Position numbers and translations under genes: made by a program. From an uncultured Myxococcales bacterium (GTDB lineage Bacteria; Myxococcota; Kuafuiibacteriia; Kuafuiibacteriales; Kuafuiibacteriaceae), in contig CAZFIV010000059.1 of assembly GCA_964519665.1 (NCBI GenBank), positions 1-42,427 on the forward strand: a stretch of DNA of 42,427 nucleotides. The letters run 5' to 3'. The notes beneath the pieces are model-generated. The model made no database searches and was not told where the DNA came from. It saw nothing but the letters and a program-made list of their open reading frames with translations. Of the stretch, positions 9,690 through 34,690 are shown piece after piece. Within the stretch, counting starts at the first letter, position 1, and each line of letters starts with the position of its first letter.

Positions 9690-12008
9690 ATGTTCTTTAC
9701 CGACGTTCCCGCTCCGCGCACATCGATGATCGTCTGGTTCCTTGCCGCCGCGTCGCTGGTGCTTGGGCCCGCGGCCGCAGAGGCGGGACCCGCGGATGAA
9801 TCGGAGCCCACGCCCGGCACATTGGCGATCGAAGTCGGGAAGGGTTCGGATGCGGCCCCCTGGGTCGCGGCGGCGCTCGAGGCGCATCTCGCCCGTGAAC
9901 TTTCGACGTACGAACGGTTGAGCGTTCGTCACCCGGACGCGGCGGTCCATCAGGCTTGCGGTCAAGACCGCGGTTGCCGGTTGGCGCGATATCGCGAAAC
10001 CGGTGTCGACGTGCTGTTTGTGATGTCGGTTCGCGCTGACGCCATTCGTTACGAGCTTTACGAGACCTGGACTCCGTCCGAGGTCGACCGGGGCGCCATC
10101 GCACTCGGCGATATCTCGACCTTGATCGGGCTGCGGCAGCGCTTGCTGGCCGTTTTTACTCCGGTGCTCGCGCCTGGTGGCCTCCTTGACCAAAAGCCGT
10201 TTCGAACTTCGGGACGAGCGTTGAGCGGGGTCCCCGCGGTCCGCCCCGACCGCATAGCGGCGCTGCTCGCTGCGGTTGCGTTGTTCCTCGCTGTTCCTTG
10301 GGGTTTCGCATTCATGGTCCTTTCGGACCGGCGCCGGCTGTGGAGTCAGCGATGGCCGTCGCTGTGGGCGGCCACAGGGGCACTGGCGGTAGCGGCGGCG
10401 CTGATGCTGGGGGCTGGAGACCGGTTGACGGTGGGGCCATCCGCGTGGGTGCTGGGTCTGGTCGGTGGCGCGGCGTGGGGCACCTTCTTCGTGACCAACG
10501 TCCGATTCCTGGCGCCTCCACTGCCTGGGCTCGGCCGGGTGGAGCACCGAGACGTGTTTCGCCTGGTCGTCGCGTGGCTGGTCGTGGGTGGCACGCGATT
10601 CATCGGCCTGACGCTTTATTACCTTCCCTTTGCGTGGGTCACCTTCGAGATGGATGAGGGCCTTGGTCTGTCGTCGGAGGCGGCAATGATACTGCTCGCG
10701 CCGTCGGTGGGTCTGATGGCCCGCGGCTGGTTGTCGAGCTGGATGCACGTGGCGGCGCTGGTCCTCGATGAATGGTTGGTCATCGGCGAGGCTGGTCCCG
10801 ACAATCCGTGGCACCGCGAGGTCTCGAGGTATTTCACCGGCTACCTCCGCCGCACCGGGTGGGCGCTCGACCCCGAGATCCTCGACTCCCTCCTCTTTCT
10901 CCCCGGCGAGCGCGAAGGTGTCCGGTGCTACGGCGGCGGCGGGATTCCGGCCCGGGTGGTCATCGACGAGCGCCTGTTGATTTTGGCCATCGGGGCTCGC
11001 GACGACCGGGATGAAGACGGCGAAGCGGTGGCGGTGCCCGACTGGACGGCGGGACTCGTGATCGCGCAGTCCTCGCCGCCGCCGGCAGCTCGGCCGCGGC
11101 CTCGTCGGCAGCCTCGCTTACGCGGTCGGGCTCCGCTTGTTCGCCGGGAGCCGCTGACCTCCGAAACGGGCCATCAGCGCAAGCATCTCGGTCAGGCGGC
11201 AACGCTCTTGGGCTATGTGCGGCCGGAGCCCGAGGAGCATGTGCCGCTCATCGCGGACACCGTCGAAGACCTCGAGGTCGTGCGGGCCCTGCTCGCCGAG
11301 CACTATCAATGGTTCGCTCCGGATCCCGATGAAGACCACGATGACACCGATCCGACCGACAAAGACTTCTTGTTCGGCCCGCTCACCCACGCCGTCGGGC
11401 GGTTGATTCGCCAGGACAGCCGGCTCGGGATCTTCGCGCTCCTGGCCGCGGAGCGAGCCCACCGCAGTATGACAGTGGTACGTTGGCTGCACCGGCAGAT
11501 GACCGCGCTGGTGACCGGCCTCGTTGGACGCTCGGCCGTGGTCATCGCCGACGCCTACCCCGCGCTGCATTTCGCGGGTCATCATCACCTGCAGTATCTC
11601 GTGTACCGAGGGACGGGCCGCGAAGACCACTTGACGGTGCGAGCGAGCCTCGATGAGCTCGAGCGCACCTCGAGGCGCGCTCTAGGGAGGGTCGGCCGAG
11701 AAATGGTCGAAGCCGACCCGCCGACCCGCCCGGTGTTCGTGCGCCGCCTGGTTTGGCTGTCGAGCTTCCTCGCCGAACCACTGGTCGACCGCGGCGAACG
11801 TCGGCTTCGTTGGGCGGCAACGACGCTCATGGTGTTGGTAGCGCTCGGCGGACTGGGCGGCTCTGTCTATCGGGCCGTCCGCTACCACCCGGTATACATC
11901 GAACGAATGGCGGAGCAGGAGCGCCGCCGGCAACGGGTCGATCACCAAGAAGCTCAAGAGAACGAAGGAGCTGCATCGCATGTCGGAAAAAGAAACGCCT
12001 CCGAGTAG
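9690..12008 (+). CDS. large polytopic membrane protein, unknown function (first gene of 7-gene coupled operon)
   Basis: 772 aa with an N-terminal signal-like hydrophobic segment (MIVWFLAAASLVLGPAAAEA), a central cluster of about 6 TM helices, a cytoplasmic region and a C-terminal TM segment. It overlaps the next gene by 29 nt. Confidence 0.55.
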   Translation: MFFTDVPAPRTSMIVWFLAAASLVLGPAAAEAGPADESEPTPGTLAIEVGKGSDAAPWVAAALEAHLARELSTYERLSVRHPDAAVHQACGQDRGCRLARYRETGVDVLFVMSVRADAIRYELYETWTPSEVDRGAIALGDISTLIGLRQRLLAVFTPVLAPGGLLDQKPFRTSGRALSGVPAVRPDRIAALLAAVALFLAVPWGFAFMVLSDRRRLWSQRWPSLWAATGALAVAAALMLGAGDRLTVGPSAWVLGLVGGAAWGTFFVTNVRFLAPPLPGLGRVEHRDVFRLVVAWLVVGGTRFIGLTLYYLPFAWVTFEMDEGLGLSSEAAMILLAPSVGLMARGWLSSWMHVAALVLDEWLVIGEAGPDNPWHREVSRYFTGYLRRTGWALDPEILDSLLFLPGEREGVRCYGGGGIPARVVIDERLLILAIGARDDRDEDGEAVAVPDWTAGLVIAQSSPPPAARPRPRRQPRLRGRAPLVRREPLTSETGHQRKHLGQAATLLGYVRPEPEEHVPLIADTVEDLEVVRALLAEHYQWFAPDPDEDHDDTDPTDKDFLFGPLTHAVGRLIRQDSRLGIFALLAAERAHRSMTVVRWLHRQMTALVTGLVGRSAVVIADAYPALHFAGHHHLQYLVYRGTGREDHLTVRASLDELERTSRRALGRVGREMVEADPPTRPVFVRRLVWLSSFLAEPLVDRGERRLRWAATTLMVLVALGGLGGSVYRAVRYHPVYIERMAEQERRRQRVDHQEAQENEGAASHVGKRNASE

Positions 12009-12834
12009 CCCGGCGGCCGGTTCAGCCGGCGAAGCACCGGAACCACAGTTCTTCGAGACGGTGCATCGCTCTCGCCTCGCCATCAACAAAGCGAGAGCGG
12101 GGGCCGGCGTAGCGGGCTTGCTCGGGTTCGGGGCGCTGTTCGTCGTAGCGGCGGTCTTCTTCGTGACCGAGAGCTACTTCATCTCGATGATGATGATCTC
12201 TTTTGCGCTGCTCATCTACGTGTCCGGCGCCGAGCTGGTAAAGCTGTTCCTTTCGACGGTGACCGTCTTCTTTTCGAGTAAGCACGTCATCGATCGGGCT
12301 TCGTACCTGCAAGAAACGCTGGTGCCCATGCAGAGATTCTTGCAGGTCCGACTCGATACGACCGGGACGGTCAAGCTCAGCGCGATCCAGCCGGGAGCGA
12401 CGGTCAAGCTGCCCGACAATCCGCTTTCGCGCGACATCGCCACTATCTTGGATGGCAAAGAAGAGCCCACAGAGTATCTTCAATACATCGCGCACGCCTA
12501 TTACGCCGAGTGCCACGAGCTCTACGACTACTCGAGCGCTCACCTCGAGTTCGTCGCGCAGACCATGCCGCTGTTCGGCTTGATCGGCACCATCGTCGGC
12601 CTGATCGGCATGTTCGACAGCCTGAGCGCCGACGTCACCGTCGAGTTCGTTTCGCCGCAGCTGGCCCTGGCACTCAAGACCACCCTGTACGGGGCGGTCT
12701 TCTCGTCGATCTATAAGATCATCGCCTCCCGCTTCGACCAGCGGCTCAAGGCGCTGGACTACGACTTCGAGACCTTCTGCCGGGCGCTCGAAGTCCTTAT
12801 CGAGAGCAAGGCAAAAGTGAGGGTCGGCTCATGA
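11980..12834 (+). CDS. MotA/TolQ/ExbB-family proton-channel protein
   Basis: 284 aa with a 2+2 TM topology and a roughly 120-aa cytoplasmic loop. The C-terminal MotA_ExbB signature is MPLFGLIGTIVGLIGMF...LALALKTTLYGAVFSSIYKII. The 4-nt overlap with the next gene indicates translational coupling. Confidence 0.8.
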   Translation: MSEKETPPSSPAAGSAGEAPEPQFFETVHRSRLAINKARAGAGVAGLLGFGALFVVAAVFFVTESYFISMMMISFALLIYVSGAELVKLFLSTVTVFFSSKHVIDRASYLQETLVPMQRFLQVRLDTTGTVKLSAIQPGATVKLPDNPLSRDIATILDGKEEPTEYLQYIAHAYYAECHELYDYSSAHLEFVAQTMPLFGLIGTIVGLIGMFDSLSADVTVEFVSPQLALALKTTLYGAVFSSIYKIIASRFDQRLKALDYDFETFCRALEVLIESKAKVRVGS

Positions 12835-13436
12835 AGCGCGTTTACGTGCTCCCGCGCGCCCCTCGGCGAGGAGGCGAAGTATGGCAGATCATCTATATGG
12901 ATTTGATCACCATCGTCATGGTGTTCTTCGTCATCCTGTGGTCCATCAATCAAGGTCGCGACGACAGCTCCGCCGATTCAACGGGAGACGAGACGACCCG
13001 CAAGGTGAATCTCCCCGGCGATGTTCTGTTTCCATCCGGCAAGTCCGAGCTCACCCCTGAAGGCAAAGAAGTGTTCAGCAAGTTGTTCGAAGAGGGCACT
13101 GACGAGGTCCTCAACTTCGATCTCGGGGGGCTCAATCGTCGTCTATTGATCATCCACGGGCACACCGACAGCGATGGCGACAAGATCAACAACTTTGGTC
13201 TCGGCTACCGGCGGGCGTTCTCGGTGTACCGAGAGATCGAGTTCTATGGCCCGCAGGTCGCCGACCACGTCGTCATCTGCACGCATGCCGACAACTCGCC
13301 GGTCCAAAGAACGCCGGCCTTCCAGGGCCGCCTGAGCCCGGCCCAGCGGGAGGCGTTGCGCGAAGCGAAGTCCCGCAACCGGCGCATCACCATCGAGGAT
13401 AAGATCGTCAGCGTGACGGCGGTCGACGAAGAGTGA
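12831..13436 (+). CDS. MotB/TolR-like stator subunit with OmpA-like peptidoglycan-binding C-terminal domain
   Basis: 201 aa. The N-terminal segment WQIIYMDLITIVMVFFVILW matches the MotB TM/plug region with the conserved protonatable Asp. The C-terminal GHTDSDG...N..LGYRRAFSV matches the OmpA-like motif. Confidence 0.8.
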   Translation: MKRVYVLPRAPRRGGEVWQIIYMDLITIVMVFFVILWSINQGRDDSSADSTGDETTRKVNLPGDVLFPSGKSELTPEGKEVFSKLFEEGTDEVLNFDLGGLNRRLLIIHGHTDSDGDKINNFGLGYRRAFSVYREIEFYGPQVADHVVICTHADNSPVQRTPAFQGRLSPAQREALREAKSRNRRITIEDKIVSVTAVDEE

Positions 13437-13442
13437 CGCCCT

Positions 13443-15059
13443 ATGCGGATCGGCGCCAAGAGTATCACCGGGTTTACACTTTTGGTCGCGAGTACCCTCA
13501 CCGCGGTGTCTTTGGGGCGCCTGAGGGCGGACTATCTCGCGCAGCTCGACCCGTGGACGAGTTTTGCGGTCGGGGCCTTCGCGGTCGTGGCGGCCCGGGC
13601 CGTCTTTCACTTCGGGCGCCTCGGTCAGTCCAGCGAGAATTTTCTCCGTATCGGCGGGGCCGACGGCGCTCGGGTCGAACGGGAAGACCCTTTCGGCCAG
13701 GGCCCCCGACGTCAGCCGATCTGGTGGCGAAGGACCCGCGCCGGGCTGTTGCAGACCGCCTACGTGGCGATATTTCTGCAGGTCGGGCTGGTGACCCTCG
13801 ACAACCGCGGCGTCGCGCTGCTCGCGGCCTTGCCGGCCGCGTTCGGCCCCTCCAGCTACGAGTACTGTCTCGAAGAACAAGCACCGGAACCCGAGGGCCC
13901 CGAGCTCGCGGGCTGCAGTCTGATCAGGAGAGCCTACGAACTCGGCTATGCCAGCGATCTTGGGCCCTGCGCACCGAAGGAAGAGGAGGTCGCCGATGCC
14001 GTTTGCGACCGCCGTCAGCTCGACGAACCGTATCTTCACTACGCATGGCGACTCCTCGGGGCGCGCCGCGCCGACCTCCTGCCGGACGCTCGAGAAGGGG
14101 TGCAGGCGGCGCTGACCAAGATCGATGAGCAGTGGGAGCATCTGGGTGACCTCGTGCTCGCTCAGCGGGATCCGATCGCTCGGACCCCGCGCGCTTCGCA
14201 CCATCTATTCACCAATCTGCCGCCGCCGCGCGAAGACGTGGTCGGCCGGGTGGTGGATGTGCTCGACGCGGCGGCTTGCGATCGACGGGCGATGAACATG
14301 CCTCCGCTGGTGGCCGTCTCGGAACAGACGAACGCTTCGAGCTCGATCGTCGAGCACGTCGTCGGACATCTGCTGTTCAATCCCGCTTATCCCACGGTGG
14401 TCGGTTCCTGCCGCGAATTCACGATCCACTGGGCAGCGTCGACCGATATCTGCGACCGGTTGGTCGAGGGACCGGCCGGCGTTCTAGAAAACGACCGGAC
14501 CCTCGCCGGGGTGCGAACAGTGATGGCCCGGTACCGGCGCGCACTCGTAACCTGGGAACTGGCCGGCGAAAGTGGAGCGGGCCCCATACCTCCTCGGCCG
14601 CCCCCGCTGAAGAAGATCGTGAGTTTCCAGTGCTTCATGGTCGACCGAACGTCTTCTTCGGTGGCGACCCCAGTCACGTCGCGTACGACGACCCTGCACG
14701 GCCATACCTTGAGCGTACGCTTGACTCGGGTGGCGCCCTTCGGTGCCGACGTGCGCGACCAGATCGGTACGTTCAAGCACCTGTCTCGTCTGCTCGCGCC
14801 GGGCTTCGGGTACGGGTCGCTGCAGAGCGAACAATCGTTGGTCGAGGCCGCGGCGGGATTGTCGGTGGCCAAGCAATTCACCAATGACCGAGACCTGCTG
14901 AGCAAGCTCGAGCTCTTGCGAGAGACGGACATCTTTCTCGGTCACGAATGGCTCGACCGACGACCGGACCTGTTGGTCGTATATCCGTACCACGTGCATC
15001 TGAACAATTTCGTCGAGGCGTTTCGTAGGCACTATCAGCACGCGAGGACCCGACTATGA
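13443..15059 (+). CDS. hypothetical membrane-anchored protein (4 N-terminal TM helices, large soluble domain)
   Basis: 538-aa ORF with GC-rich third positions, beginning 7 nt after the MotB-like stop. No recognisable domain. Confidence 0.5.
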   Translation: MRIGAKSITGFTLLVASTLTAVSLGRLRADYLAQLDPWTSFAVGAFAVVAARAVFHFGRLGQSSENFLRIGGADGARVEREDPFGQGPRRQPIWWRRTRAGLLQTAYVAIFLQVGLVTLDNRGVALLAALPAAFGPSSYEYCLEEQAPEPEGPELAGCSLIRRAYELGYASDLGPCAPKEEEVADAVCDRRQLDEPYLHYAWRLLGARRADLLPDAREGVQAALTKIDEQWEHLGDLVLAQRDPIARTPRASHHLFTNLPPPREDVVGRVVDVLDAAACDRRAMNMPPLVAVSEQTNASSSIVEHVVGHLLFNPAYPTVVGSCREFTIHWAASTDICDRLVEGPAGVLENDRTLAGVRTVMARYRRALVTWELAGESGAGPIPPRPPPLKKIVSFQCFMVDRTSSSVATPVTSRTTTLHGHTLSVRLTRVAPFGADVRDQIGTFKHLSRLLAPGFGYGSLQSEQSLVEAAAGLSVAKQFTNDRDLLSKLELLRETDIFLGHEWLDRRPDLLVVYPYHVHLNNFVEAFRRHYQHARTRL

Positions 15060-15688
15060 GCGGCGTGGGTTCGGCGGGGGTCGTCATCTCGATGCTCATG
15101 GCGACCGGGGCGCCCTCTATTATGGAAGCGGGCGACAGCAGTGACGTCCGGCGCCGCACTCTGGAAGATACCTTCGTGGCCTTTCGAGCAATGGACGAGG
15201 CGTCACGAACTCGAATCTTCAACTATATTTATAGAATCGAGCGAGATAAGTGCCAGGCGCCGCTGAGAAGCCTGAAGGTGGGCTGCCTGCTCGAGGCGGC
15301 GCGCCGAAACTGCCGACGGCGCGGGGTCCATCAGCGAAAAGAGTGTCGCCGGGTCTCGGATGTCATCGTCGCCAATCGGCTGAGCGAGCCGAGGTTTCTG
15401 ACCCGTTCCGACCGCTACCAAATTATGAAAGAAAGCGACAACTATCGCGACGGGCTGTCGGCGGAGCTTCGCCGACGCTATGCGCGTTTGGTGACCGGGC
15501 TGTACCTCAAAGTGCCGGTGCCTGCCGACGCGGCGCCCGAAACCTTGGCCGCGGCCGTAGACGGATACTGTCTCGACATTGCGGGGCAACGCAGCCGACT
15601 GTCGTGGACGCACTGCGCCGCCGCGGTGGTCTGGTTTATCGGTACGAGCCCGAGCGAAGCGTCGGTTGACAAGGCGGTGGGGCCATGA
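15056..15688 (+). CDS. hypothetical Cys-rich protein
   Basis: 210 aa with 4-nt overlaps at both ends (ATGA coupling). No recognisable domain. Confidence 0.45.
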   Translation: MSGVGSAGVVISMLMATGAPSIMEAGDSSDVRRRTLEDTFVAFRAMDEASRTRIFNYIYRIERDKCQAPLRSLKVGCLLEAARRNCRRRGVHQRKECRRVSDVIVANRLSEPRFLTRSDRYQIMKESDNYRDGLSAELRRRYARLVTGLYLKVPVPADAAPETLAAAVDGYCLDIAGQRSRLSWTHCAAAVVWFIGTSPSEASVDKAVGP

Positions 15689-16848
15689 CCCGTGCACTGC
15701 TGCGGCACTTGGCGAACGAGACCAGCAAGCTTCAGCAGGCGGGGCTCTACAAGCAGGAAGTTGCCGACGAGCGCGATGCGCCGAGCGGGTCCATCGACTT
15801 CACGAGCGGCGACGTCCTCGGCCTCGAGCATCGACCCGAGGTGGCCGACGCGGCTGTCGCCGCCATTCGCGAACACGGGCCTGGGCGGTCGTCGCCACGT
15901 CTGTTTGGTGGCACGCTGTCGATTCACCAGAGGTTGGAGGCGAGGGTCGCTTCGCTGATCGGTGTACCCGAAGCGATCGTGTACGCCAGCGGCTATCTCG
16001 GCAACGTCGGTCTATTCGATACGATGTTCGATGCGCGGGACTGTATTCTCGTCGACGCTGCGGTCCATCCCAGCTTGGCCGAGGGCATTCGACTCTCCGG
16101 GGCCCGGGCCTTGCCTTACGTCAGTGAGGATCTCGAGAGTCTAGACGACCGGCTGCGACGGTCGCGAACGGCCCGATTCCGAGTCGTGGTGACCGATGGC
16201 GTCTTTCCTTTGAGTGGAAATCTTGCACCACTGGGCGAGCTGTGCGATCTCGCGGACCGCTACGACGCGCTGGTGGTCGTGTACGACGCATTGGGCGTCG
16301 GTGTTCTCGGCGACGGGCAAGGGGGCAGCGTCGAAAAGTGGGGCGTCGCGGGTCGGGTGGACCTGGTCACCGGGACGTTCGTCGATGTGCTCGGTGGAGC
16401 AGGGGGGGGCTATGTGGCTGGTCGGCCGGAGATGATCTCGTGGCTGCGCCAGAAGTCCACGCCTTATCTATTCTCGGGTGCGCTCCCACCCGGAAACGCC
16501 GCCGCTGCCCAGGCCGCGATCGAGCTGGTGAGCAGCGGCCAAGCGCCCGCCCGCGAGGTCCTGGCTTTGACCACGGCCTTCAAAGAGCAGCTCGAGGGCC
16601 GAGGGTTCGACGTTCAAGGTGACGGGCACGCCATCCTCACGGTCGTCGTCGGCAACGCGGTGACGCTGCAGCGGATGGTCAACCAGCTGGGGGAGCTCGA
16701 TGTGCGGGTGCAGGGTATGTGCTATCCTGTTGTGCCCGAGAACATGGCACGCATTCAGTTCAGGATCACCGCGGCTCACACCGAGGCGGTGCTGAGCACT
16801 GCGGTTGAACGTCTGGCGCAAGCGGCCCAAACACTGCACCTCCTATGA
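15685..16848 (+). CDS. alpha-oxoamine synthase family (AONS/KBL/serine palmitoyltransferase-like) PLP-fold protein lacking the catalytic Lys; predicted pseudoenzyme
   Basis: 387 aa with the class-II aminotransferase fold (HPSLAEG ~ HAS motif; GTFVDVLGGAGGGYVAG ~ GTFSKALGxxGGY). The Schiff-base Lys position is Asp (T-F-V-D), and the D-x-A-H motif is VYDALGVG, with His replaced by Leu. Confidence 0.7.
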   Translation: MTRALLRHLANETSKLQQAGLYKQEVADERDAPSGSIDFTSGDVLGLEHRPEVADAAVAAIREHGPGRSSPRLFGGTLSIHQRLEARVASLIGVPEAIVYASGYLGNVGLFDTMFDARDCILVDAAVHPSLAEGIRLSGARALPYVSEDLESLDDRLRRSRTARFRVVVTDGVFPLSGNLAPLGELCDLADRYDALVVVYDALGVGVLGDGQGGSVEKWGVAGRVDLVTGTFVDVLGGAGGGYVAGRPEMISWLRQKSTPYLFSGALPPGNAAAAQAAIELVSSGQAPAREVLALTTAFKEQLEGRGFDVQGDGHAILTVVVGNAVTLQRMVNQLGELDVRVQGMCYPVVPENMARIQFRITAAHTEAVLSTAVERLAQAAQTLHLL

Positions 16849-18422
16849 CGGTGAACGAGTCTTCGACGGACCTGCGGCGAAGGATGGCCCTTCGATTCTC
16901 TGGGACGACCGCGGACCTACCGCGGTCGATCTTCGGCCGCCTCCGCTACGCCTCCGGTATCGCCAGCCTAGGCGGATTTCGAAGGCTCGTCCGAATCCTG
17001 CCCGACAGCGAGACCCGGGCCGTGGCTGACCAGAAGGCGGTCGAGAACATCGTGCTGTCGCTCGGCCGGCTCAAGGGCGTGCCGATGAAGTTAGGGCAGC
17101 TGGCGGGGTATGCCGACTCCGGTGTTCCGCCGGCGCTGCGGCCGGCCTTCGCGGCCCTCGAAACCCACGCCCAGGCGGTACCCGTGGCCCACATGCGCGC
17201 GGTGCTGGATAAAGAGCTCGGGCCGCGCGCAGACGAGCTGTGGACGACCATGAGCTGGACCCCAGTCGCGGTCGGCACGCTCGGTCAGGTATACCGGGCG
17301 GAGCTCGACGGGACGCCCGTCGCGGTCAAGATTCGATACCCGGACATCGAGAGGACGATCCGCCTCGATTTTCGCCCGGCCGCCCTCGGCTCTCAGGCGA
17401 TGGACGCCTTTCGCCGCCGGGGGCGACGAGGCGATGCGACCATCAAAGAAATCATGGGTCGTATCCTCGACGAGTGCGACTACCGCCAAGAAGCAGAGCG
17501 GCAGCAAGCCTTCGCTCACGCCTTCGACGAGCATCCGGTCATCACCGTGCCGCAGATCTTTTCAGAATATTCGACGCCGGCCGTCCTGACCACCGAGCTC
17601 GCGGAAGGGCAGCACCTCGACGAATACCTGGCGACGAAGCCGAATGTCGAAGCACGGGAGCGCGCAGGGCTGGCGTTGTTCGACTTCTACGTCGGGTCGT
17701 TGTTCGTGTTGGGGGCGTACAACTCGGACCCGCACGCCGGAAACTACATCTTTACCGACGATGGCCGAGTCGTCGTGTTCGATCACGGCGCGGGCCGAAC
17801 CTTTTCGAGCGTCCCGATCAGTGCGATCCGATACCTGGGGCAAGCGATGCTCAGCGACGACTGGGCCGGGGTTCGCGAGGCCCTCGGGGCCCTCGGAATC
17901 GTGCCCAGCCGAGAGCGGCTCGATGAAGCGCCGCTGCGGCGGGTGCTGACCTGGCTGTTCGAGCCGATGCTCGCGCCCGACGAGTCGCAGTGGACCTTGC
18001 CGAACGCGGAGGAGGTCGGTGCGATCACCAAGTGCGTGCGGGAGTACAAGGCGATCGAGCTTCCGTCGGAGCTGGTCTTCTTGATTCGGCTTCGGGTCGC
18101 GCTATCGGCCGTGTTGGCTCGGCTCGGAGTGCAGGCCAACTGGCGAGAGGTTCTCGGTGCCCATCTCCAGGGTGACTTCTTTCTTCGGCCCCCCCCGCTC
18201 GATGTGGTGCTCGTCGAGCCCGGTCCCCGTCCGATCGAGCTGCTACGGGTCTTGCGGGACGAGCTCGGCGGTGCGGTCACCGAGGCCAAGGCGCTGATCG
18301 ACGCCGTCCCCTGCGTAGTGCGGTCCGAGCTCGACCGAGACGTAGCGAGGGCCGTCGGGGCACGACTCACCGCAGCCGGAGCAAAAGTCGACCTGCGAAC
18401 GCCCCCGGAAGCGCGTTCCTAA
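16845..18422 (+). CDS. ABC1/UbiB-family atypical protein kinase fused to a C-terminal ribosomal L7/L12 C-terminal-like domain
   Basis: 525 aa. The ABC1 signature is WTPVAVGTLGQVYRAELDGTPVAVKIRYPDIERTI plus a downstream catalytic HAGN motif. The last ~70 aa (LDVVLVEPGPRPIELLRVLRDELGGAVTEAKALIDAVPCVVRSELDRDVARAVGARLTAAGAKVDLR) align colinearly with the bL12 CTD (FDViL..GanKvaViKavR..tGLGLKEAKdLVEsaP..lKegvsKddAEalKkaLEeAGAeVevK). Confidence 0.75.
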   Translation: MTVNESSTDLRRRMALRFSGTTADLPRSIFGRLRYASGIASLGGFRRLVRILPDSETRAVADQKAVENIVLSLGRLKGVPMKLGQLAGYADSGVPPALRPAFAALETHAQAVPVAHMRAVLDKELGPRADELWTTMSWTPVAVGTLGQVYRAELDGTPVAVKIRYPDIERTIRLDFRPAALGSQAMDAFRRRGRRGDATIKEIMGRILDECDYRQEAERQQAFAHAFDEHPVITVPQIFSEYSTPAVLTTELAEGQHLDEYLATKPNVEARERAGLALFDFYVGSLFVLGAYNSDPHAGNYIFTDDGRVVVFDHGAGRTFSSVPISAIRYLGQAMLSDDWAGVREALGALGIVPSRERLDEAPLRRVLTWLFEPMLAPDESQWTLPNAEEVGAITKCVREYKAIELPSELVFLIRLRVALSAVLARLGVQANWREVLGAHLQGDFFLRPPPLDVVLVEPGPRPIELLRVLRDELGGAVTEAKALIDAVPCVVRSELDRDVARAVGARLTAAGAKVDLRTPPEARS

Positions 18423-18454: not shown

Positions 18455-18988
18455 TCACTTCGCGAGGAGCGAGTGGACCGAGATGCTGGCGAGTGCCAGG
18501 TCGGCCGTCATGGCCTTGCCGATGGCCACGAGGCCGAGTCGGCGAACGCGTGAGCGGTCGAGGGGCGCATCGATTCGATGGGGAACGAAGCCATCGACGG
18601 GAAGGTCGACCACGGTCCAGACCGGCGGAGCTCGAAAGGACTGCCGATACGACTGCCAGGGGTGTCGAACATCGGGCGTCTTGAGGTGACAGCCGTAGGT
18701 CTCGCCGTTGCCCAGCACGAGCAAGCGCAGTTGAGCGCTCGAGGACAGGTCGAGCTCGAGGTTGGCCGCCATCTGTACGAAGCCTCCGCCATTGTCGAGG
18801 CGAACGTGCCCCACGAGCCGCAGTGCCGGACGGCCGTCGATGACCTCCGCTCGTAGCTCCCCCGATGAACGACCGCCCATGACTTGGTCGAGAACGAGAG
18901 TAAAGCGCGGTCCCTGCTTGGACGGATCGAAGATAAGCATAAACCAGTGTCCGGCCGGAGAGTACAGGCTGACAAATCGCTGGTCCAT
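18455..18988 (-). CDS. CIA30-family protein (complex I intermediate-associated protein 30-like)
   Basis: 177 aa with the conserved QVMGGRSSGEL (VMGGvS) CIA30 motif. Its start ATG directly abuts the TGA of the upstream redoxin gene (TGAATG). Confidence 0.6.
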   Translation of the reverse strand: MDQRFVSLYSPAGHWFMLIFDPSKQGPRFTLVLDQVMGGRSSGELRAEVIDGRPALRLVGHVRLDNGGGFVQMAANLELDLSSSAQLRLLVLGNGETYGCHLKTPDVRHPWQSYRQSFRAPPVWTVVDLPVDGFVPHRIDAPLDRSRVRRLGLVAIGKAMTADLALASISVHSLLAK

Positions 18989-19777
18989 TCAGTCGAGGTG
19001 CGCTCGCAACGCCGCGAGCACGACTTCTGGACCAGAGCGCCGCAGATAGTCCTCCGCCTGGTCGATCCACAAGACCTTGCCCTGTTGGTCCACCAGCAGT
19101 GAGGTTGGTACCGGCAGCGCGTCTGCGTGATCGCTCGGTGGGCCTGAGTGGAATCCTTGATTGCGCAAGCCAAACGCATCGGTCACCACCAGCTTCGGAT
19201 CCGACAGCATGATGGCCTGCAGTCCGTGCTGGTCACGCTTTGCGCGTATCGCTTGAGGCTGATCCGTGCTCACCGTGAGCACCTGAACCCCGCGTCGATC
19301 GAACTCCGGCCGCAGTTCTTCCCATCGCCGCAACTCGGCGACGCAGTAGGGTCACCAATGCGCGCGGAAGAACTTAATGAGTACGATGTGACCCCTGAGG
19401 CTCTGGGAGTCAAAGGCATGGCCGTGTTCGTCGACCGCGGCAAAGCGCGGTATCGTGTCGCCCACCTGGATGGCATCGACTGCGGCTTCCTGCGAGCTGA
19501 CCGCGATTGTCAACGGAACGAGCGCCCCGAAGAAGATCGCGGGCAGTGCCGCAATGGCGCCGTACCAGCGAGTGCCGGCCACGAACGCGCCGATTCCGAG
19601 CGCTCCCGCGGTCAAGAAGAGGAACACGAAGACAGACCGGTTCTCTGGAATCTCGACTCGATTGATCAGATGCGCCCACACCGCGAGGGTCACACCCACC
19701 AGTGCGGCCGCCAGTAATCCGAACGTCGTCCCCAACCTTTTCGGATTCTTTCTACGCGCCCTCGGTGCCTCGTTCAT
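18989..19777 (-). CDS. membrane-anchored TlpA/ResA-like thiol:disulfide oxidoreductase, selenocysteine-containing candidate (in-frame UGA at 19352..19354; U-P-Y-C redox motif)
   Basis: Track ORFs 19352..19990 and 18989..19333 share one frame and are separated only by a TGA: ...GHIVLIKFFRAHW-[TGA]-PYCVAELRRWEELRPEFDRRGVQVLTVSTDQ... This is a redoxin domain with TGA at the first Cys of WCxxC. A 7-bp hairpin with an AGUUG loop (GUCGCCG-AGUUG-CGGCGAU) starts 9 nt after the UGA, which is bSECIS-like. The N-terminal part has 2-3 TM helices. The start is uncertain (19777 MNEAPR..., or up to 19990). Confidence 0.65.
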
Positions 19778-20053: not shown

Positions 20054-20458
20054 TTGCCCCAATCACTGGCAATCGGCGGTTTCCGCTTCAGACATCGGGA
20101 CGGCTACGCAGTTCGCGACGTCATGAATCTCACCGATGTGGGGCACCTGGCCGACGATGCGGACAGCGGCGAAGACAAGATGGAGCCGGCCGCGAGGAAG
20201 AGCGGGCGGGACATCCGGGATCTATCGCGGCTGTACACGGCTGCGTTCTTCGAGCACTTGGGCGACTTGGCCGTCGTTCCGCCCGTCTCGGGCGACGTCT
20301 TCAAAGCGGTCAGGAATCCGGACCTTCCGCCGACCGACGTCGTGAGGCTCGTCGCCGACGCCGGTCGAGGGCTTGGGCTCCGTTCGTTGGCGGGCCCGGC
20401 TGTTGGCGGGCCCGGTGGGCGGCGATGGCGGCGCCACGCCATTTCAGCTCAGGACTGA
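20054..20458 (+). CDS. hypothetical protein (weak call)
   Basis: 134-aa ORF in the gap between two minus-strand genes. Its composition is more protein-like than the antisense alternative 20104..20442, but there is no domain and no clear RBS. Confidence 0.25.
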   Translation: MPQSLAIGGFRFRHRDGYAVRDVMNLTDVGHLADDADSGEDKMEPAARKSGRDIRDLSRLYTAAFFEHLGDLAVVPPVSGDVFKAVRNPDLPPTDVVRLVADAGRGLGLRSLAGPAVGGPGGRRWRRHAISAQD

Positions 20459-21941
20459 GCGAGGGAATCGCGGATGGTCTGCAGCACGTGGATCCGCGCA
20501 TATCGCTTGCTATTCGCCGGAACGATGACCCAAGGGGCGGTCGCCGTGCTCGTGCGCGCGATCATTTCGTTCACGGCCTCCTCGTAGAGGACCCACTTGT
20601 CGCGGTTGCGCCAATCTTCTTCGGTGATTTTGTGGCGCTTGTAGTCGATCTGTTGCCGTTCTTCGAACCGGCGCAACTGCTCGTCCGCGTCGATGTGAAG
20701 CCAGAATTTCAGCACCTTGACGTTGGCGATCGAGAGCTGCTCTTCGAACTCGTTGATTTCGCGGTACGCACGCTTCCACTCCGCGGTCGTCGCAAAGCCC
20801 TCCACCCGTTCGACGAGCACGCGGCCGTACCACGAGCGGTCATAAATGGTGAATCGCCCGCCCCGCGGAACGCGTCGCCAAAAGCGCCACAGGTAGTGTT
20901 GGGCGCGCTCCTCATCGGTCGGGGCTCCGACTGAGATCACCTGAAACAGACGCGCATCGAGGGCCGCGACGAGGCGCCGGATCGTGCCGCCCTTGCCGGC
21001 GGCGTCCCAGCCTTCGAGGACGACGACCGTCGAACGTTTCGCCTCGTACGCCTCGGCGGCGAGGCGACCGATCTCCTCTTGCAGCCGCTCCAACCGCTTC
21101 TCGTACGTTTCGTCGTCAACGCTCTGCGAGAGGTCGACCCGGTCGAGGATGGTGATCTGATCCCCTGGGGGCGGGTTGAGCACCGCGTCCGTCGAACCGT
21201 TACCGTGGTCGCTCTCGGCGCGCTCCGTCGCTTGCTCGGCCGCCATCTTCATCGCCTGAAAGACGGCCTGCGTGACGGCGAGGTCGCGGTAGCGACGGTC
21301 CCACGCTTCGATGAGCTGCCATCGGGCGAGCCCGAGGTCGGTGATGCGAATCGCGCGCTCGGCGGCCGCGACGAGCTCGTCGTACCGAGAGTGGAGTTTT
21401 CGATCGCCCTTCGAGACTCGCCATTTGGTGGCCTTCTTGGCGTCCCACTTCTTGTAGCGTCGCGCCTGCTGTTCCTTCGTGATGTGCAGCCAGAACTTCA
21501 GGATGAGCGCGTGGTCTACGGCGAGCATTCGCTCGAGCCGTACGACGCTCAAAAGCTCGCGTTCGAACCGTGCCTGGTCGATTTTGCCCAGCACATGGCG
21601 ACGAATCAATCGCTCGTACCAGCCCCCAAGGTAGATGCCGATGCGCCCGCGTCTCGGCATCGTCACCCAGTGTCGCCATTGCGGCGGTCGTTCGCGCGCT
21701 TCGTCCGTGGGATCGCGGTCCGTGTGGACTTCGACGCCTCGCACGTCGAGGAGCTTGGTCAGGAAATTGAGGACACCACCTTTTCCCGCCCCGTCGACCC
21801 CCTCGATGATGATGATGACCGGGACGTCGCTCTTCTGCAACGCAAACTGCGCCTTCAGCAAGGGTGCCCGCAGTGCGTCGAGGCTCGCGTCAAATTCGTC
21901 CCTCGAGAGGCGTCGGCCCAGTGCGGCAGTCTCGAACATGT
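20449..21941 (-). CDS. two-domain polyphosphate kinase 2 family protein (PPK2; polyphosphate:AMP/ADP phosphotransferase-like)
   Basis: Two tandem PPK2 domains, each with a Walker A (IIIEGVDGAGKGG and VVLEGWDAAGKGG) and lid motifs (YLWRFWRRVPRGGRFTIYDRSWY). The likely start is MFETAALG at 21941, preceded by GGAGAAAAC; the track ORF extends to 22083. Confidence 0.85.
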
Positions 21942-22126
21942 TTTCTCCTACCACAACCAGGCGAGCGCACCAGCGTCCGTCACCGCCACGGATCGGCTGC
22001 GAAACAGCGAGGCCCCGGCGTCGGAAGCACGACGGGCATGTCAGACGTATTCCGAAGACTAGACGAGATGGGCGGTCAGCCATCCCGATCCGCTGCGCGG
22101 ATCGGTCGTTTGCATCCGTGCTCTCA

Positions 22127-34395: not shown

Positions 34396-34649
34396 GCGGG
34401 CCTCCTTCGTGCGTTGAGGGGTTGCTGAACGGGGGGCGCCCGGGGGCGCACTCCAGGGCGAACGCGGCGGCCCGCCGACGGTCGACGTCGGCGGGCGGCG
34501 TTGCGTTCGGCGACTCGAGGCGCGCATGGCGGCGGTCGCTCCGAAGAGTCGACTCCGGCCGGACGCCGCCCCGCAGCAGGTTAGAGGTTGTTTCAAGGAT
34601 ACGTCGTCAGATTAAAAGTCTGATGCCTTTACCGTTTTGGCCAATCACC

Positions 34650-34690
34650 CAACCGAGGATGATCCAGGACTCGAACCTGGAATGACATGA
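34650..34690 (-). other. tRNA-like fragment: canonical T-arm (CCAGG-TTCGAGT-CCTGG) with partial acceptor-like flank; no complete cloverleaf found
   Basis: The minus-strand sequence tCCAGGTTCGAGTCCTGGatcatcc lies in an AT-rich ~560-bp non-coding gap. Manual folding gives an imperfect 6/7 acceptor pairing (GCGATGA/TCATCCT) with one extra nucleotide and no convincing D or anticodon arms. Confidence 0.35.

What the first reader, a model, noticed from the sequence alone, without database searches (positions are those of the whole stretch)
16845..18422. ABC1/UbiB atypical kinase fused to a ribosomal protein bL12 (L7/L12) C-terminal domain
The last ~70 residues align position-by-position with the bL12 CTD, the domain that recruits translational GTPases (EF-Tu, EF-G, IF2) to the ribosome stalk. 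Here it hangs off a UbiB-family kinase-like ATPase, and the segment VTEAKALIDAVP mirrors bL12's KEAKDLVESAP. Such a fusion could tether the kinase to translational GTPases or reuse the fold as an interaction module. I am not aware of this architecture being described.
Basis: seen in the sequence. Interest (0 to 1): 0.6.

Follow-up and report, generated by a model that had tools for sequence, protein, structure and literature searches.

The report
UbiB-like ATPase carrying bL12 stalk domain
A myxobacterial gene really does join a UbiB-type kinase-like ATPase to a copy of the ribosomal stalk protein's factor-binding domain, but that domain is a widely reused plug-in module, and here it marks proteins linked to an uncharacterised membrane-motor gene cluster.

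Summary

It is neither UbiB proper, MABP-1, nor a ribosomal protein, because all three curated cut-offs are missed.

Two results change the reading:
- PF00542 is a promiscuous non-ribosomal module. Of the 149 best representative hits, 138 carry 2-8 tandem copies, fused to TIR, caspase, KAP NTPase, Ser/Thr kinase, LRR or adhesin domains.
- The gene always sits beside a conserved six-gene cluster: a 772-aa membrane protein, MotA-like, MotB-like, two unknowns and an alpha-oxoamine synthase. In sister lineages an ArnB-like vWA protein with the same C-terminal domain takes that position, alone or together with the ABC1 fusion.

The domain is most likely a docking module for this system. Binding of translational GTPases remains possible but untested.

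The parts
16845..18422 (+). ABC1/UbiB-family kinase-like ATPase fused to a bL12 C-terminal domain (525 aa). It is soluble and has no convincing TM segment.
   Evidence: ORF; Pfam; orthologues; AF2 model; hydropathy.
17088..17099 (+). KxGQ motif (K82-L-G84-Q85), the signature of the UbiB family's N-terminal extension.
   Evidence: K82, G84 and Q85 are invariant in 59 homologues. The role of the motif is established knowledge of COQ8/UbiB (bioRxiv 10.1101/149823, section heading 'KxGQ domain').
17157..17879 (+). ABC1 kinase-like core (residues 105-345). It contains the A-rich-loop Gln (G147-Q148), the beta3 Lys K162, E210/E216, the catalytic loop D295-P-H297-x-G299-N300 and the DFG-equivalent D313-x-G315.
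18168..18197 (+). Short linker (residues 442-451, GDFFLRPPPL) between the kinase C-lobe and the CTD. In distant orthologues it is replaced by 40-90 residues of Ala/Pro/Ser-rich low-complexity sequence.
   Evidence: Alignment A1 columns 459-530. pLDDT is 95-97 across this stretch in the window protein.
18198..18398 (+). bL12 (L7/L12) C-terminal-domain homologue (residues 452-518), beta-alpha-alpha-beta-alpha-beta.
9690..12008 (+). X772, the first gene of the conserved six-gene core. It has a signal-peptide-like N-terminus, a periplasmic domain, a multi-TM block, a large conserved domain and a C-terminal TM. No Pfam, NCBIfam, PADLOC or PDB match.
   Evidence: Conserved in all related loci.
11980..12834 (+). 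MotA/PomA/TolQ-family ion-channel (stator) subunit, 284 aa. It is the most conserved protein of the cluster, at 81-85% identity where ABC1-L12 is 58-60%.
   Evidence: PF01618 E 1e-15. PomA, MotP and TolQ models match below their cut-offs. Identities.
12831..13436 (+). MotB-like subunit: MotB plug/TM plus an OmpA-like peptidoglycan-binding domain, 201 aa.
   Evidence: PF13677 at 29.6 bits (GA 24) and PF00691 at 25.4 bits (just below GA). Generic ZorB/MotB hits in PADLOC.
13443..15059 (+). X538, a conserved membrane-anchored protein with 8 Cys and invariant motifs (SHHLFTNL, FNPAY, VYPYHxHL). No known family.
15056..15688 (+). X210, a small Cys-rich protein with a hydrophobic N-terminus. No known family.
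15685..16848 (+). PLP-dependent alpha-oxoamine synthase (Kbl/BioF/serine-palmitoyltransferase family), below every equivalog cut-off. Its stop overlaps the ABC1-L12 start (ATGA).
   Evidence: PF00155 E 2e-36. Kbl model scores 347 bits against a cut-off of 460; BioF 272 against 426. Junction.

Best explanation
The gene encodes a soluble, probably catalytically competent UbiB-family ATPase, closest in fold to COQ8A and to mycobacterial MABP-1. Its C-terminus is a domain descended from the bL12 CTD that has left the ribosome.

It belongs functionally to a conserved envelope system found in Myxococcota-type metagenomic genomes. That system comprises a MotA/MotB-like ion-driven stator pair, three uncharacterised membrane or periplasmic proteins, and an alpha-oxoamine synthase.

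The CTD works as a portable protein-protein docking module. The same domain is attached to two unrelated cytoplasmic components of the system: the ABC1 ATPase and an ArnB/Sec23-24-like vWA scaffold. This would allow both to be brought to one shared partner, or to each other. The ABC1 domain supplies ATP hydrolysis, perhaps stimulated by lipid or small molecule, or perhaps phosphotransfer.

Shown:
- domain identities;
- conservation of the fusion;
- gene linkage;
- domain swapping.

Inferred:
- that the CTD docks to a partner;
- which partner that is;
- ATPase activity and its stimulation.
For: Identity:
- establish both domains.
- All UbiB-family catalytic residues are invariant in 59 homologues.
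- There are no TM helices.

Constraint: the CTD is the best-conserved segment of the protein.

Linkage: every ABC1-L12 gene with enough flanking DNA lies next to the same six genes, in four different arrangements.
- Co-directional at the 3' end: window, L002, L004, L116.
- Divergent at the 5' end: L005/L091, L090, L092 and the contigs of P0023.
- In tandem with vWA-L12, divergent: L110.
- Co-directional at the 5' end, with vWA-L12 divergent: L115.

Specificity: the 80 nearest ABC1 relatives in GTDB representative genomes have neither the CTD nor the cluster.

Module swapping:
- In L101, L088 and L114 a vWA protein with a PF00542 C-terminus occupies the divergent position without any ABC1 gene.
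- Both fused families share Arg70 (13/13 and 78/78), whereas bL12 has Lys70 (111/111).

Portability: 138 of the 149 best representatives hit by the window CTD are multi-copy non-ribosomal proteins. Their partners include TIR, caspase, KAP NTPase, Pkinase, LRR, adhesin and EF-Tu D2/D3 domains.

Tethering: in the vWA partner the CTD hangs on a linker with pLDDT 34. Distant ABC1-L12 orthologues have long low-complexity linkers. Both resemble a flexibly tethered binding head.

Partner fold: the vWA partner resembles ArnB (8s05, E 1e-27), a kinase-regulated scaffold (PMC12852372, PMC6509490).
Against: - No partner has been identified. Nothing in the six-gene core has a recognisable GTPase or any other known bL12-binding fold. 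X772, X538 and X210 have no detectable homologues of known structure.
- vWA-L12 proteins also occur away from the cluster (L111, L112). The CTD's target is therefore not necessarily a cluster protein.
- One locus (L100) has the six genes with no CTD protein within 10 kb, although an IS481-type transposase sits directly after the synthase gene.
- In the window protein the linker is short and confidently modelled. The CTD may therefore be packed on the kinase rather than free.
- UbiB-family ATPase activity is inferred from motifs only.
Confidence: 0.5

Rival explanations
1. Stalk mimic. The fused CTD keeps the bL12 activity of binding translational GTPases (EF-Tu, EF-G, IF2, RF3). It would bring the ATPase/kinase (and the vWA scaffold) to them off the ribosome, or compete with the stalk, and so couple the envelope system to translation.
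For: - The CTD is closer to real bL12 (profile hits at about 75-83 bits) than to the vWA-type CTD (about 54 bits).
- Helix-4 residues I66 and R73 and a basic residue at 70 are invariant. E82-A83-K84 of helix 5 is kept in most ABC1-type copies. Helices 4 and 5 are the factor-binding face (Kothe 2004 and Helgstrand 2007, cited in PMC3299993; K65/K70 in PMC10602876).
- One non-ribosomal PF00542 protein is fused to EF-Tu domains 2 and 3 (P0442).
- The nearest named relative of the ABC1 part, MABP-1, binds a ribosome-targeting macrolide (PMC6208485).
Against: - K70 is always Arg, and K70R lowers EF-Tu binding in E. coli (PMC10602876).
- K65 is Pro, Thr or Val. G79, K92 and K95, invariant or nearly so (K92 110 of 111) in 111 bL12 sequences, are not kept.
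- The vWA-type CTD has lost A83 and K84.
- The same signature is retained in copies found in apparently secreted proteins (dockerin, Ig, SprB, adhesin), so it may be structural.
- UbiB-family proteins are not established protein kinases.
Confidence: 0.2
2. Self-association or autoregulation. The CTD either multimerises (CTD-CTD contacts linking ABC1-L12 to itself or to vWA-L12) or folds back on the kinase domain as a regulatory lid, with no external partner.
For: - Kaur et al. 2020 treat the L12/ClpS domain in vWA proteins as 'multimerizing'.
- Tandem arrays of 2-8 copies are the commonest non-ribosomal form.
- ABC1-L12 and vWA-L12 are adjacent genes in L110 and L115.
- The short linker has pLDDT 95-97 and the whole model has pTM 0.89, which suggests a docked CTD.
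- MABP-1 is a homodimer.
Against: - In bL12, dimerisation is a property of the N-terminal domain, which is absent here (established knowledge; PMC3299993).
- Distant orthologues and the vWA partner have long or disordered linkers, which fits a free head rather than a lid.
- No coordinates or PAE were available to check contacts.
Confidence: 0.2
3. Ordinary UbiB. The protein works in quinone biosynthesis like UbiB/COQ8, and the CTD is a neutral appendage.
For: PF03109 and TIGR01982 are hit, and the fold matches COQ8A.
Against: - TIGR01982 scores 119.9 bits against a cut-off of 487.55, and PRK04750 scores 74 against 667.
- There are no C-terminal TM helices and no ubi genes nearby.
- The CTD is the most conserved part of the protein.
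- Linkage to the Mot-like cluster is strict.
Confidence: 0.04
4. ClpS-like adaptor. The domain acts like ClpS and delivers N-degron substrates, or the ATPase itself, to a Clp or Lon protease.
For: - A LonB/LonC-like protease gene lies just upstream in the window.
Against: - There is no ClpS Pfam hit even at E 10.
- The Lon-like gene is absent from the related loci.
Confidence: 0.03
5. Artefact: a chimeric assembly or a frameshift joining two genes.
For: None, apart from one relative (P0006) whose extreme C-terminus looks frameshifted.
Against: - At least 20 independent sequences from different samples and assemblers share the architecture.
- The reading frame is continuous and composition is uniform.
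Confidence: 0.01

Closest known systems
COQ8A/ADCK3, Coq8p and UbiB (UbiB family of atypical kinase-like ATPases, PF03109)
   Different: It fails the UbiB equivalog models by a wide margin. It has no membrane anchor. It is not in a quinone context. It carries an extra C-terminal bL12 domain.
MABP-1 (Rv3197 / MSMEG_1954), the soluble mycobacterial UbiB-like macrolide-binding ATPase
   Different: The score is 131.7 bits against a cut-off of 800, with about 25% identity. MABP-1 has no bL12 domain and its genomic context is different. Macrolide binding cannot be assessed here.
Ribosomal protein bL12 (L7/L12, RplL), C-terminal domain
   Same: True homologue: PF00542 above the gathering score, 31% identity and rmsd 1.3 A to the M. 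tuberculosis bL12 CTD, and the same beta-alpha-alpha-beta-alpha-beta topology. G62, I66, R73, L86, P91, A103 and G114 are retained.
   Different: There is no N-terminal dimerisation/bL10-binding domain (no PF16320). TIGR00855 scores 34 bits against a cut-off of 84. K70 is Arg. G79, K92 and K95 are lost. The gene is not in an rplJL context. It cannot be a stalk subunit.
vWA proteins carrying an 'L12/ClpS' domain in NTP-dependent conflict systems (Kaur, Burroughs, Iyer and Aravind 2020, eLife, PMC7159879)
   Same: This is a non-ribosomal L12-type domain placed C-terminal to a vWA domain. Here an ArnB-like vWA-L12 family (78 of 84 homologues carry the CTD) is the sister component at the same locus.
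   Different: The published case is in Bacteroidetes vWA-MoxR beta-propeller systems. That paper mentions no ABC1/UbiB partner and no MotA/MotB-like cluster. Here there is no MoxR ATPase.
Ion-driven stator (5:2 motor) systems that energise accessory proteins: MotAB/PomAB, ExbBD-TonB, TolQR-TolA, AglRQS, Zorya ZorAB
   Same: The cluster encodes a MotA/PomA/TolQ-family channel and a MotB-like plug plus OmpA-like subunit next to large membrane proteins of unknown function.
   Different: All specific models are missed, and there are no ZorA, ZorC or ZorD hits in PADLOC. No flagellar, TonB or TolA genes are present. The partners (alpha-oxoamine synthase, ABC1-L12, vWA-L12) are not known from any of these systems.

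Membership tests
UbiB/ABC1 atypical kinase-like family (PF03109) | Pfam PF03109 hit above the gathering score | tested here: met
   153.5 bits against 22.9, residues 105-345.
UbiB/ABC1 atypical kinase-like family (PF03109) | KxGQ motif; A-rich loop with invariant Gln; beta3 Lys; catalytic-loop Asp and Asn; metal-binding Asp | tested here: met
   K82/G84/Q85, G147/Q148, K162, D295/H297/G299/N300 and D313/G315 are invariant in 59 homologues.
UbiB/ABC1 atypical kinase-like family (PF03109) | COQ8-like fold | tested here: met
UbiB/ABC1 atypical kinase-like family (PF03109) | ATPase activity | not testable with these tools
   Needs a biochemical assay.
UbiB proper (ubiquinone biosynthesis; TIGR01982 / PRK04750) | Score at or above the equivalog cut-off | tested here: not met
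   119.9 bits against 487.55, and 74.2 against 667.
UbiB proper (ubiquinone biosynthesis; TIGR01982 / PRK04750) | C-terminal transmembrane anchor | tested here: not met
   No TM-like segment after the kinase domain. The only marginal hydrophobic stretch (406-424) is a helix of the C-lobe.
MABP-1 (NF050082) | Score at or above the curated cut-off | tested here: not met
   131.7 bits against 800.
MABP-1 (NF050082) | Macrolide binding and macrolide resistance | not testable with these tools
   Defined experimentally in PMC6208485.
PF00542 (bL12 C-terminal domain) as a domain family | Pfam hit above the gathering score over the full profile | tested here: met
   37.4/42.0 bits against 25.9, profile positions 2-66 of 67.
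PF00542 (bL12 C-terminal domain) as a domain family | Three-stranded sheet plus three helices, superposable on the bL12 CTD | tested here: met
Ribosomal protein bL12 (TIGR00855; stalk subunit) | Score at or above the equivalog cut-off | tested here: not met
   34.2 bits against 84.4.
Ribosomal protein bL12 (TIGR00855; stalk subunit) | N-terminal dimerisation/bL10-binding domain (PF16320) and hinge | tested here: not met
   No PF16320 hit, and the N-terminus is the ABC1 domain. Genuine bL12 hits carry PF16320+PF00542.
Ribosomal protein bL12 (TIGR00855; stalk subunit) | Invariant factor-binding residues K70, G79, L80, E82, A83, K84 and near-invariant K92 (110 of 111) | tested here: inconclusive
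   R73, I66, E82, A83 and K84 are largely kept. K70 is Arg in 13/13 copies. G79 and K92 are lost. The signature is also kept in non-ribosomal repeats.
   Only this 42-kb contig is available, and it holds no second PF00542-like ORF.
ClpS (PF02617) | Sequence family membership | tested here: not met
Zorya anti-phage system | ZorA plus ZorB plus ZorC/D or ZorE | tested here: not met
   Only generic ZorB/MotB models hit the MotB-like protein. There are no ZorA, ZorC, ZorD or ZorE hits for any of the 8 proteins tested.

The most novel reading that the evidence does not exclude
The bL12-derived heads on the ABC1 ATPase and on the ArnB-like vWA scaffold are functional stalk mimics. They would capture translational GTPases, or be recognised by factors that target the stalk. 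An ion-driven MotA/MotB-like envelope machine would thereby signal directly to the translation apparatus. This would be a previously unknown membrane-to-ribosome control or abortive-defence pathway. It would belong to a much larger, undescribed class of immune-type proteins (TIR, caspase, KAP NTPase, Ser/Thr kinase) that use arrays of bL12 CTDs as sensors or decoys.
Probability: 0.12. Interest if true: 0.85.

Novelty: new variant of a known kind. Interest (0 to 1): 0.5.

Why it matters
- **For UbiB-family biology.** Mechanism is still debated in this family. This is a soluble member with a built-in targeting domain and a fixed set of genomic partners. That offers a tractable handle on what such an ATPase acts on.
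- **For ribosome biology.** The factor-binding head of the stalk protein has been copied out of the ribosome many times, and in Myxococcota it has become a standard adaptor. Whether these copies still bind EF-Tu, EF-G or IF2 can be tested directly.
- **For envelope systems.** The seven- or eight-gene module is a conserved stator-containing system with no assigned function. It comprises a MotA/MotB-like pair, three orphan membrane proteins, an alpha-oxoamine synthase, ABC1-L12 and sometimes vWA-L12.
- **For annotation.** Pipelines currently label several of these proteins 'ribosomal protein L7/L12', which is misleading.

Tried and rejected
- **Misassembly.** Rejected because the architecture recurs and composition is uniform.
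- **Canonical UbiB, MABP-1 or bL12 membership.** Rejected on the curated cut-offs.
- **ClpS.** Only fold-level resemblance.
- **Zorya or another known defence system.** PADLOC gave only generic MotB hits.
- **Remote homology for X772, X538 and X210.** Pfam, NCBIfam, PADLOC and PDB profile searches found nothing usable.
- **AFDB fold search for the full architecture.** The library was unavailable.
- **GTDB representative genomes.** The scan returned 80 ABC1 relatives. None had the CTD or the cluster, and the window's own genome was not among them. The rplL check could therefore not be made.
- **CTD-profile search for other architectures.** It was swamped by genuine bL12. The single-sequence exhaustive search was what revealed the non-ribosomal repeats.
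- **Literature searches.** Searches for PF00542, for ABC1+L7/L12 and for MotA/MotB plus oxoamine synthase found no description of this fusion or this cluster.
- **Promoter and terminator scan.** Uninformative in this high-GC DNA.
- **Helix-4/5 residue conservation as a test for GTPase binding.** Rejected as non-diagnostic once the same signature appeared in 387 non-ribosomal copies.


Full report
**1.

The window contains a 525-codon ORF at 16845..18422 on the + strand.
- Pfam finds an ABC1 domain (PF03109, residues 105-345, E 7e-45).
- Pfam also finds a Ribosomal_L12 C-terminal domain (PF00542, residues 453-517). It scores 37.4 bits against a gathering score of 25.9 and covers positions 2-66 of the 67-position profile.
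- The isolated tail aligns without gaps to the E. coli bL12 CTD (1ctf, E 2.4e-5).
- A profile of 11 fused CTDs retrieves genuine two-domain bL12 proteins at E about 1e-18 from 5.8 billion sequences.
- An AlphaFold2 model built on 59 homologues (pLDDT 90, pTM 0.89) shows a beta-alpha-alpha-beta-alpha-beta unit at 452-518 with pLDDT about 96.

**2. It is not an artefact**

- Thirteen 90%-identity clusters from NCBI, ENA, JGI and Logan assemblies carry both domains at 38-61% identity to the window protein. More turned up later: L090, L092, L110, L115, P0219, P0436 and P0451.
- Composition is uniform across the junction.
- The CTD is the most conserved segment among close orthologues, at 70-75% identity against 54-58% for the kinase core. 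In distant orthologues it is about as conserved as the core. The domain is therefore under selection.
- In one clade the linker is about 10 residues. In others it is 40-90 residues of Ala/Pro/Ser-rich sequence, reminiscent of a flexible hinge.

**3. What the protein is and is not**

- All hallmark residues of the UbiB family are invariant across 59 homologues. These are KxGQ, the A-rich-loop Gln, the beta3 Lys, the catalytic-loop DPHxGN and the DFG-like Asp. An active nucleotide-hydrolysing site is therefore likely; this is an inference.
- It misses the curated cut-offs for UbiB (120 against 488 bits), MABP-1 (132 against 800) and bL12 (34 against 84).
- It has no N-terminal bL12 domain and no membrane anchor.
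- It is thus a soluble UbiB-family paralogue. Its closest characterised relatives are COQ8A and the mycobacterial macrolide-binding ATPase MABP-1.
- Names attached to relatives point to Myxococcota (Polyangia, Kofleriaceae, Myxococcales MAGs).

**4. The neighbourhood is the key evidence**

The gene is the last of seven tightly packed, overlapping genes. In order they are:
- X772, a large multi-TM protein with no known family;
- a MotA/PomA/TolQ-family channel subunit;
- a MotB-like subunit with plug and OmpA-like domain;
- X538, membrane-anchored and Cys-rich, unknown;
- X210, Cys-rich, unknown;
- a Kbl/BioF-like alpha-oxoamine synthase that falls below all equivalog cut-offs;
- ABC1-L12.

The same six-gene core accompanies every ABC1-L12 gene for which enough flanking DNA exists, but in different arrangements:
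- ABC1-L12 at the 3' end (window, L002, L004, L116);
- divergently transcribed at the 5' end (L005/L091, L090, L092, and the contigs of P0023);
- at the 5' end in the same direction (L115);
- divergent and in tandem with a second CTD-bearing gene (L110).

These arrangements are documented. Linkage that survives rearrangement is strong evidence of a functional connection. In contrast, the 80 closest ABC1 relatives in GTDB representative genomes have neither the CTD nor the cluster.

**5. The constant is the bL12 domain, not the kinase**

- In L101, L088 and L114 the divergent position is occupied by a vWA protein of about 495 aa whose C-terminus is also PF00542 (28 bits, above the cut-off). No ABC1 gene is present there.
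- In L110 and L115 both proteins are present.
- This vWA-L12 family is common. Of 84 homologues, 78 carry the CTD. Some are named 'ribosomal protein L7/L12' by NCBI or JGI.
- The family also occurs away from the cluster (L111, L112).
- Its model shows vWA, beta-sandwich and helical domains, then a disordered linker (pLDDT 34), then the CTD. The body resembles archaeal ArnB and the Sec23/24 core (8s05, E 1e-27; 4fx5). ArnB is a scaffold regulated by Ser/Thr kinases (PMC12852372, PMC6509490).
- A CTD-less relative sits in a PP2C-vWA-FHA-kinase cluster (L113).
- Both fused CTD families share Arg at E. coli position 70 (13/13 and 78/78), where 111/111 sampled bL12 have Lys. This is compatible with one recruitment followed by domain shuffling between neighbouring genes.

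**6. PF00542 is a promiscuous module**

- An exhaustive phmmer search with the window CTD against 1.84 billion representatives gave 576 hits at E up to 1e-3.
- Of the 149 best non-self hits, 138 have 2-8 tandem copies and only 7 are short enough to be bL12-like.
- Partner domains include TIR, TIR plus LRR, LRV repeats, caspase, KAP P-loop NTPase, Hanks-type kinase, dockerin/Ig/SprB and cleaved-adhesin/fn3. One protein combines PASTA with EF-Tu domains 2 and 3.
- A seven-copy protein exists in cultured Nannocystis pusilla (WP_346660302.1).
- The only published mention I found is a sentence in Kaur et al. 2020 about an 'L12/ClpS' domain inserted in Bacteroidetes vWA proteins. That paper mentions neither ABC1/UbiB nor stator proteins.

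**7. Does it still bind translational GTPases?**

- bL12 binds EF-Tu, EF-G, IF2 and RF3 through helices 4 and 5 of the CTD (literature cited in PMC3299993 and PMC10602876).
- In the ABC1-type CTD, I66, R73, L86 and P91 are invariant, and E82-A83-K84 is mostly kept.
- However, K70 is always Arg, and K70R lowers EF-Tu binding in E. coli.
- K65 is Pro, Thr or Val. G79, K92 and K95 are not conserved.
- The vWA-type CTD has also lost A83 and K84.
- Crucially, 387 non-ribosomal copies, including those in apparently secreted proteins, retain the K65/I66/I69/K70/R73/G79/L80/E82/A83/K84 pattern well. The pattern therefore cannot by itself be read as evidence for factor binding.
- The stalk-mimic idea stays open, at about 0.2 probability, but is not supported beyond homology.

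**8. Most likely mechanism**

I commit to the following at about 0.5 confidence. The CTD is a tethered docking head. It brings two different cytoplasmic components to a common partner, or to each other. These components are a UbiB-type ATPase and an ArnB-like vWA scaffold. This happens within a system built around a MotA/MotB-like ion-driven stator and three orphan envelope proteins.

The ATPase may respond to a lipid-like amino-ketone made by the adjacent synthase. This is by analogy with lipid and phenol activation of COQ8 and is pure inference.

Shown:
- domain identities;
- selection on the CTD;
- gene linkage;
- module swapping.

Inferred:
- docking;
- the partner;
- the enzymatic role.

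Rivals, in order of weight:
- stalk mimicry (0.2);
- self-association or an autoregulatory lid (0.2), favoured by the short, confidently modelled linker in this particular orthologue;
- an ordinary UbiB role (0.04);
- a ClpS-like adaptor (0.03);
- artefact (0.01).

**9. Novelty and score**

- The two domains are known, and non-ribosomal L12-type domains have been noted once in print.
- The ABC1+bL12 architecture and its obligatory association with a stator-containing seven- or eight-gene module were not found described in the literature available to me.
- I class it as a new variant of a known kind, with moderate interest (0.5). It is a real, selected and unusual fusion with a clear experimental path, but no demonstrated mechanism.
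- The wider phenomenon of bL12-CTD arrays on immune-type effectors, and the orphan stator cluster, may be the more valuable leads.

Noticed in passing
window 9690-16848 (+); also L002, L004, L005, L087-L110, L114-L116: A conserved six-gene cluster with no assigned function. It comprises a 772-aa multi-TM protein, a MotA/PomA-like subunit, a MotB/OmpA-like subunit, a 538-aa Cys-rich membrane protein, a 210-aa Cys-rich protein and a Kbl/BioF-like alpha-oxoamine synthase. Three of the six have no Pfam, NCBIfam, PADLOC or PDB match.
   Followed up: partly
L101 682-2352 (-); L110 10001-11485; L114 10001-11491; L115 10001-11485: An ArnB/Sec23-24-like vWA protein with a C-terminal bL12 CTD sits next to the same cluster, alone or together with ABC1-L12. 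The family is common in Kofleriaceae and Myxococcales MAGs. It is sometimes annotated 'ribosomal protein L7/L12'.
   Followed up: yes
proteins P0306-P0454, e.g. P0306 (WP_346660302.1, Nannocystis pusilla), P0318, P0353, P0361, P0380, P0423, P0442: Many non-ribosomal proteins carry 2-8 tandem PF00542 copies. They are fused to TIR, TIR+LRR, caspase, KAP NTPase, Ser/Thr kinase, LRV or adhesin-type domains. One is fused to PASTA plus EF-Tu domains 2 and 3. This looks like a largely undescribed adaptor or sensor domain class.
   Followed up: partly
window 35948-39985 (-): A 1344-aa protein combines a Ser/Thr kinase domain, an nSTAND1 NTPase and an FGE-sulfatase domain. This is an architecture typical of NTP-dependent conflict systems.
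   Followed up: no
window 6986-9538 (+): A LonB/LonC-like AAA+ protease (850 aa) lies directly upstream of the cluster. It is not present at this position in related loci.
   Followed up: partly
window 20449-22083 (-) and 18455-19333 (-): A two-domain polyphosphate kinase 2, a CIA30-family protein and a truncated-looking AhpC/TSA-type ORF lie downstream. Downstream neighbours differ in related loci.
   Followed up: no
window 34582-34650 (-): Rfam reports a tRNA match at 30 bits, barely above the gathering score of 29 (E 0.022). ARAGORN finds no tRNA anywhere in the window.
   Followed up: no
L100 13427-14425 (+): An IS481-family transposase sits immediately after the alpha-oxoamine synthase. 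This is the one locus whose six-gene core lacks any CTD-bearing neighbour. The X772 homologue there is 1046 aa.
   Followed up: partly
protein P0006 (580 aa): This orthologue diverges from the family in the last third of the CTD and runs on for about 60 residues. A frameshift in that assembly is the likely cause.
   Followed up: no
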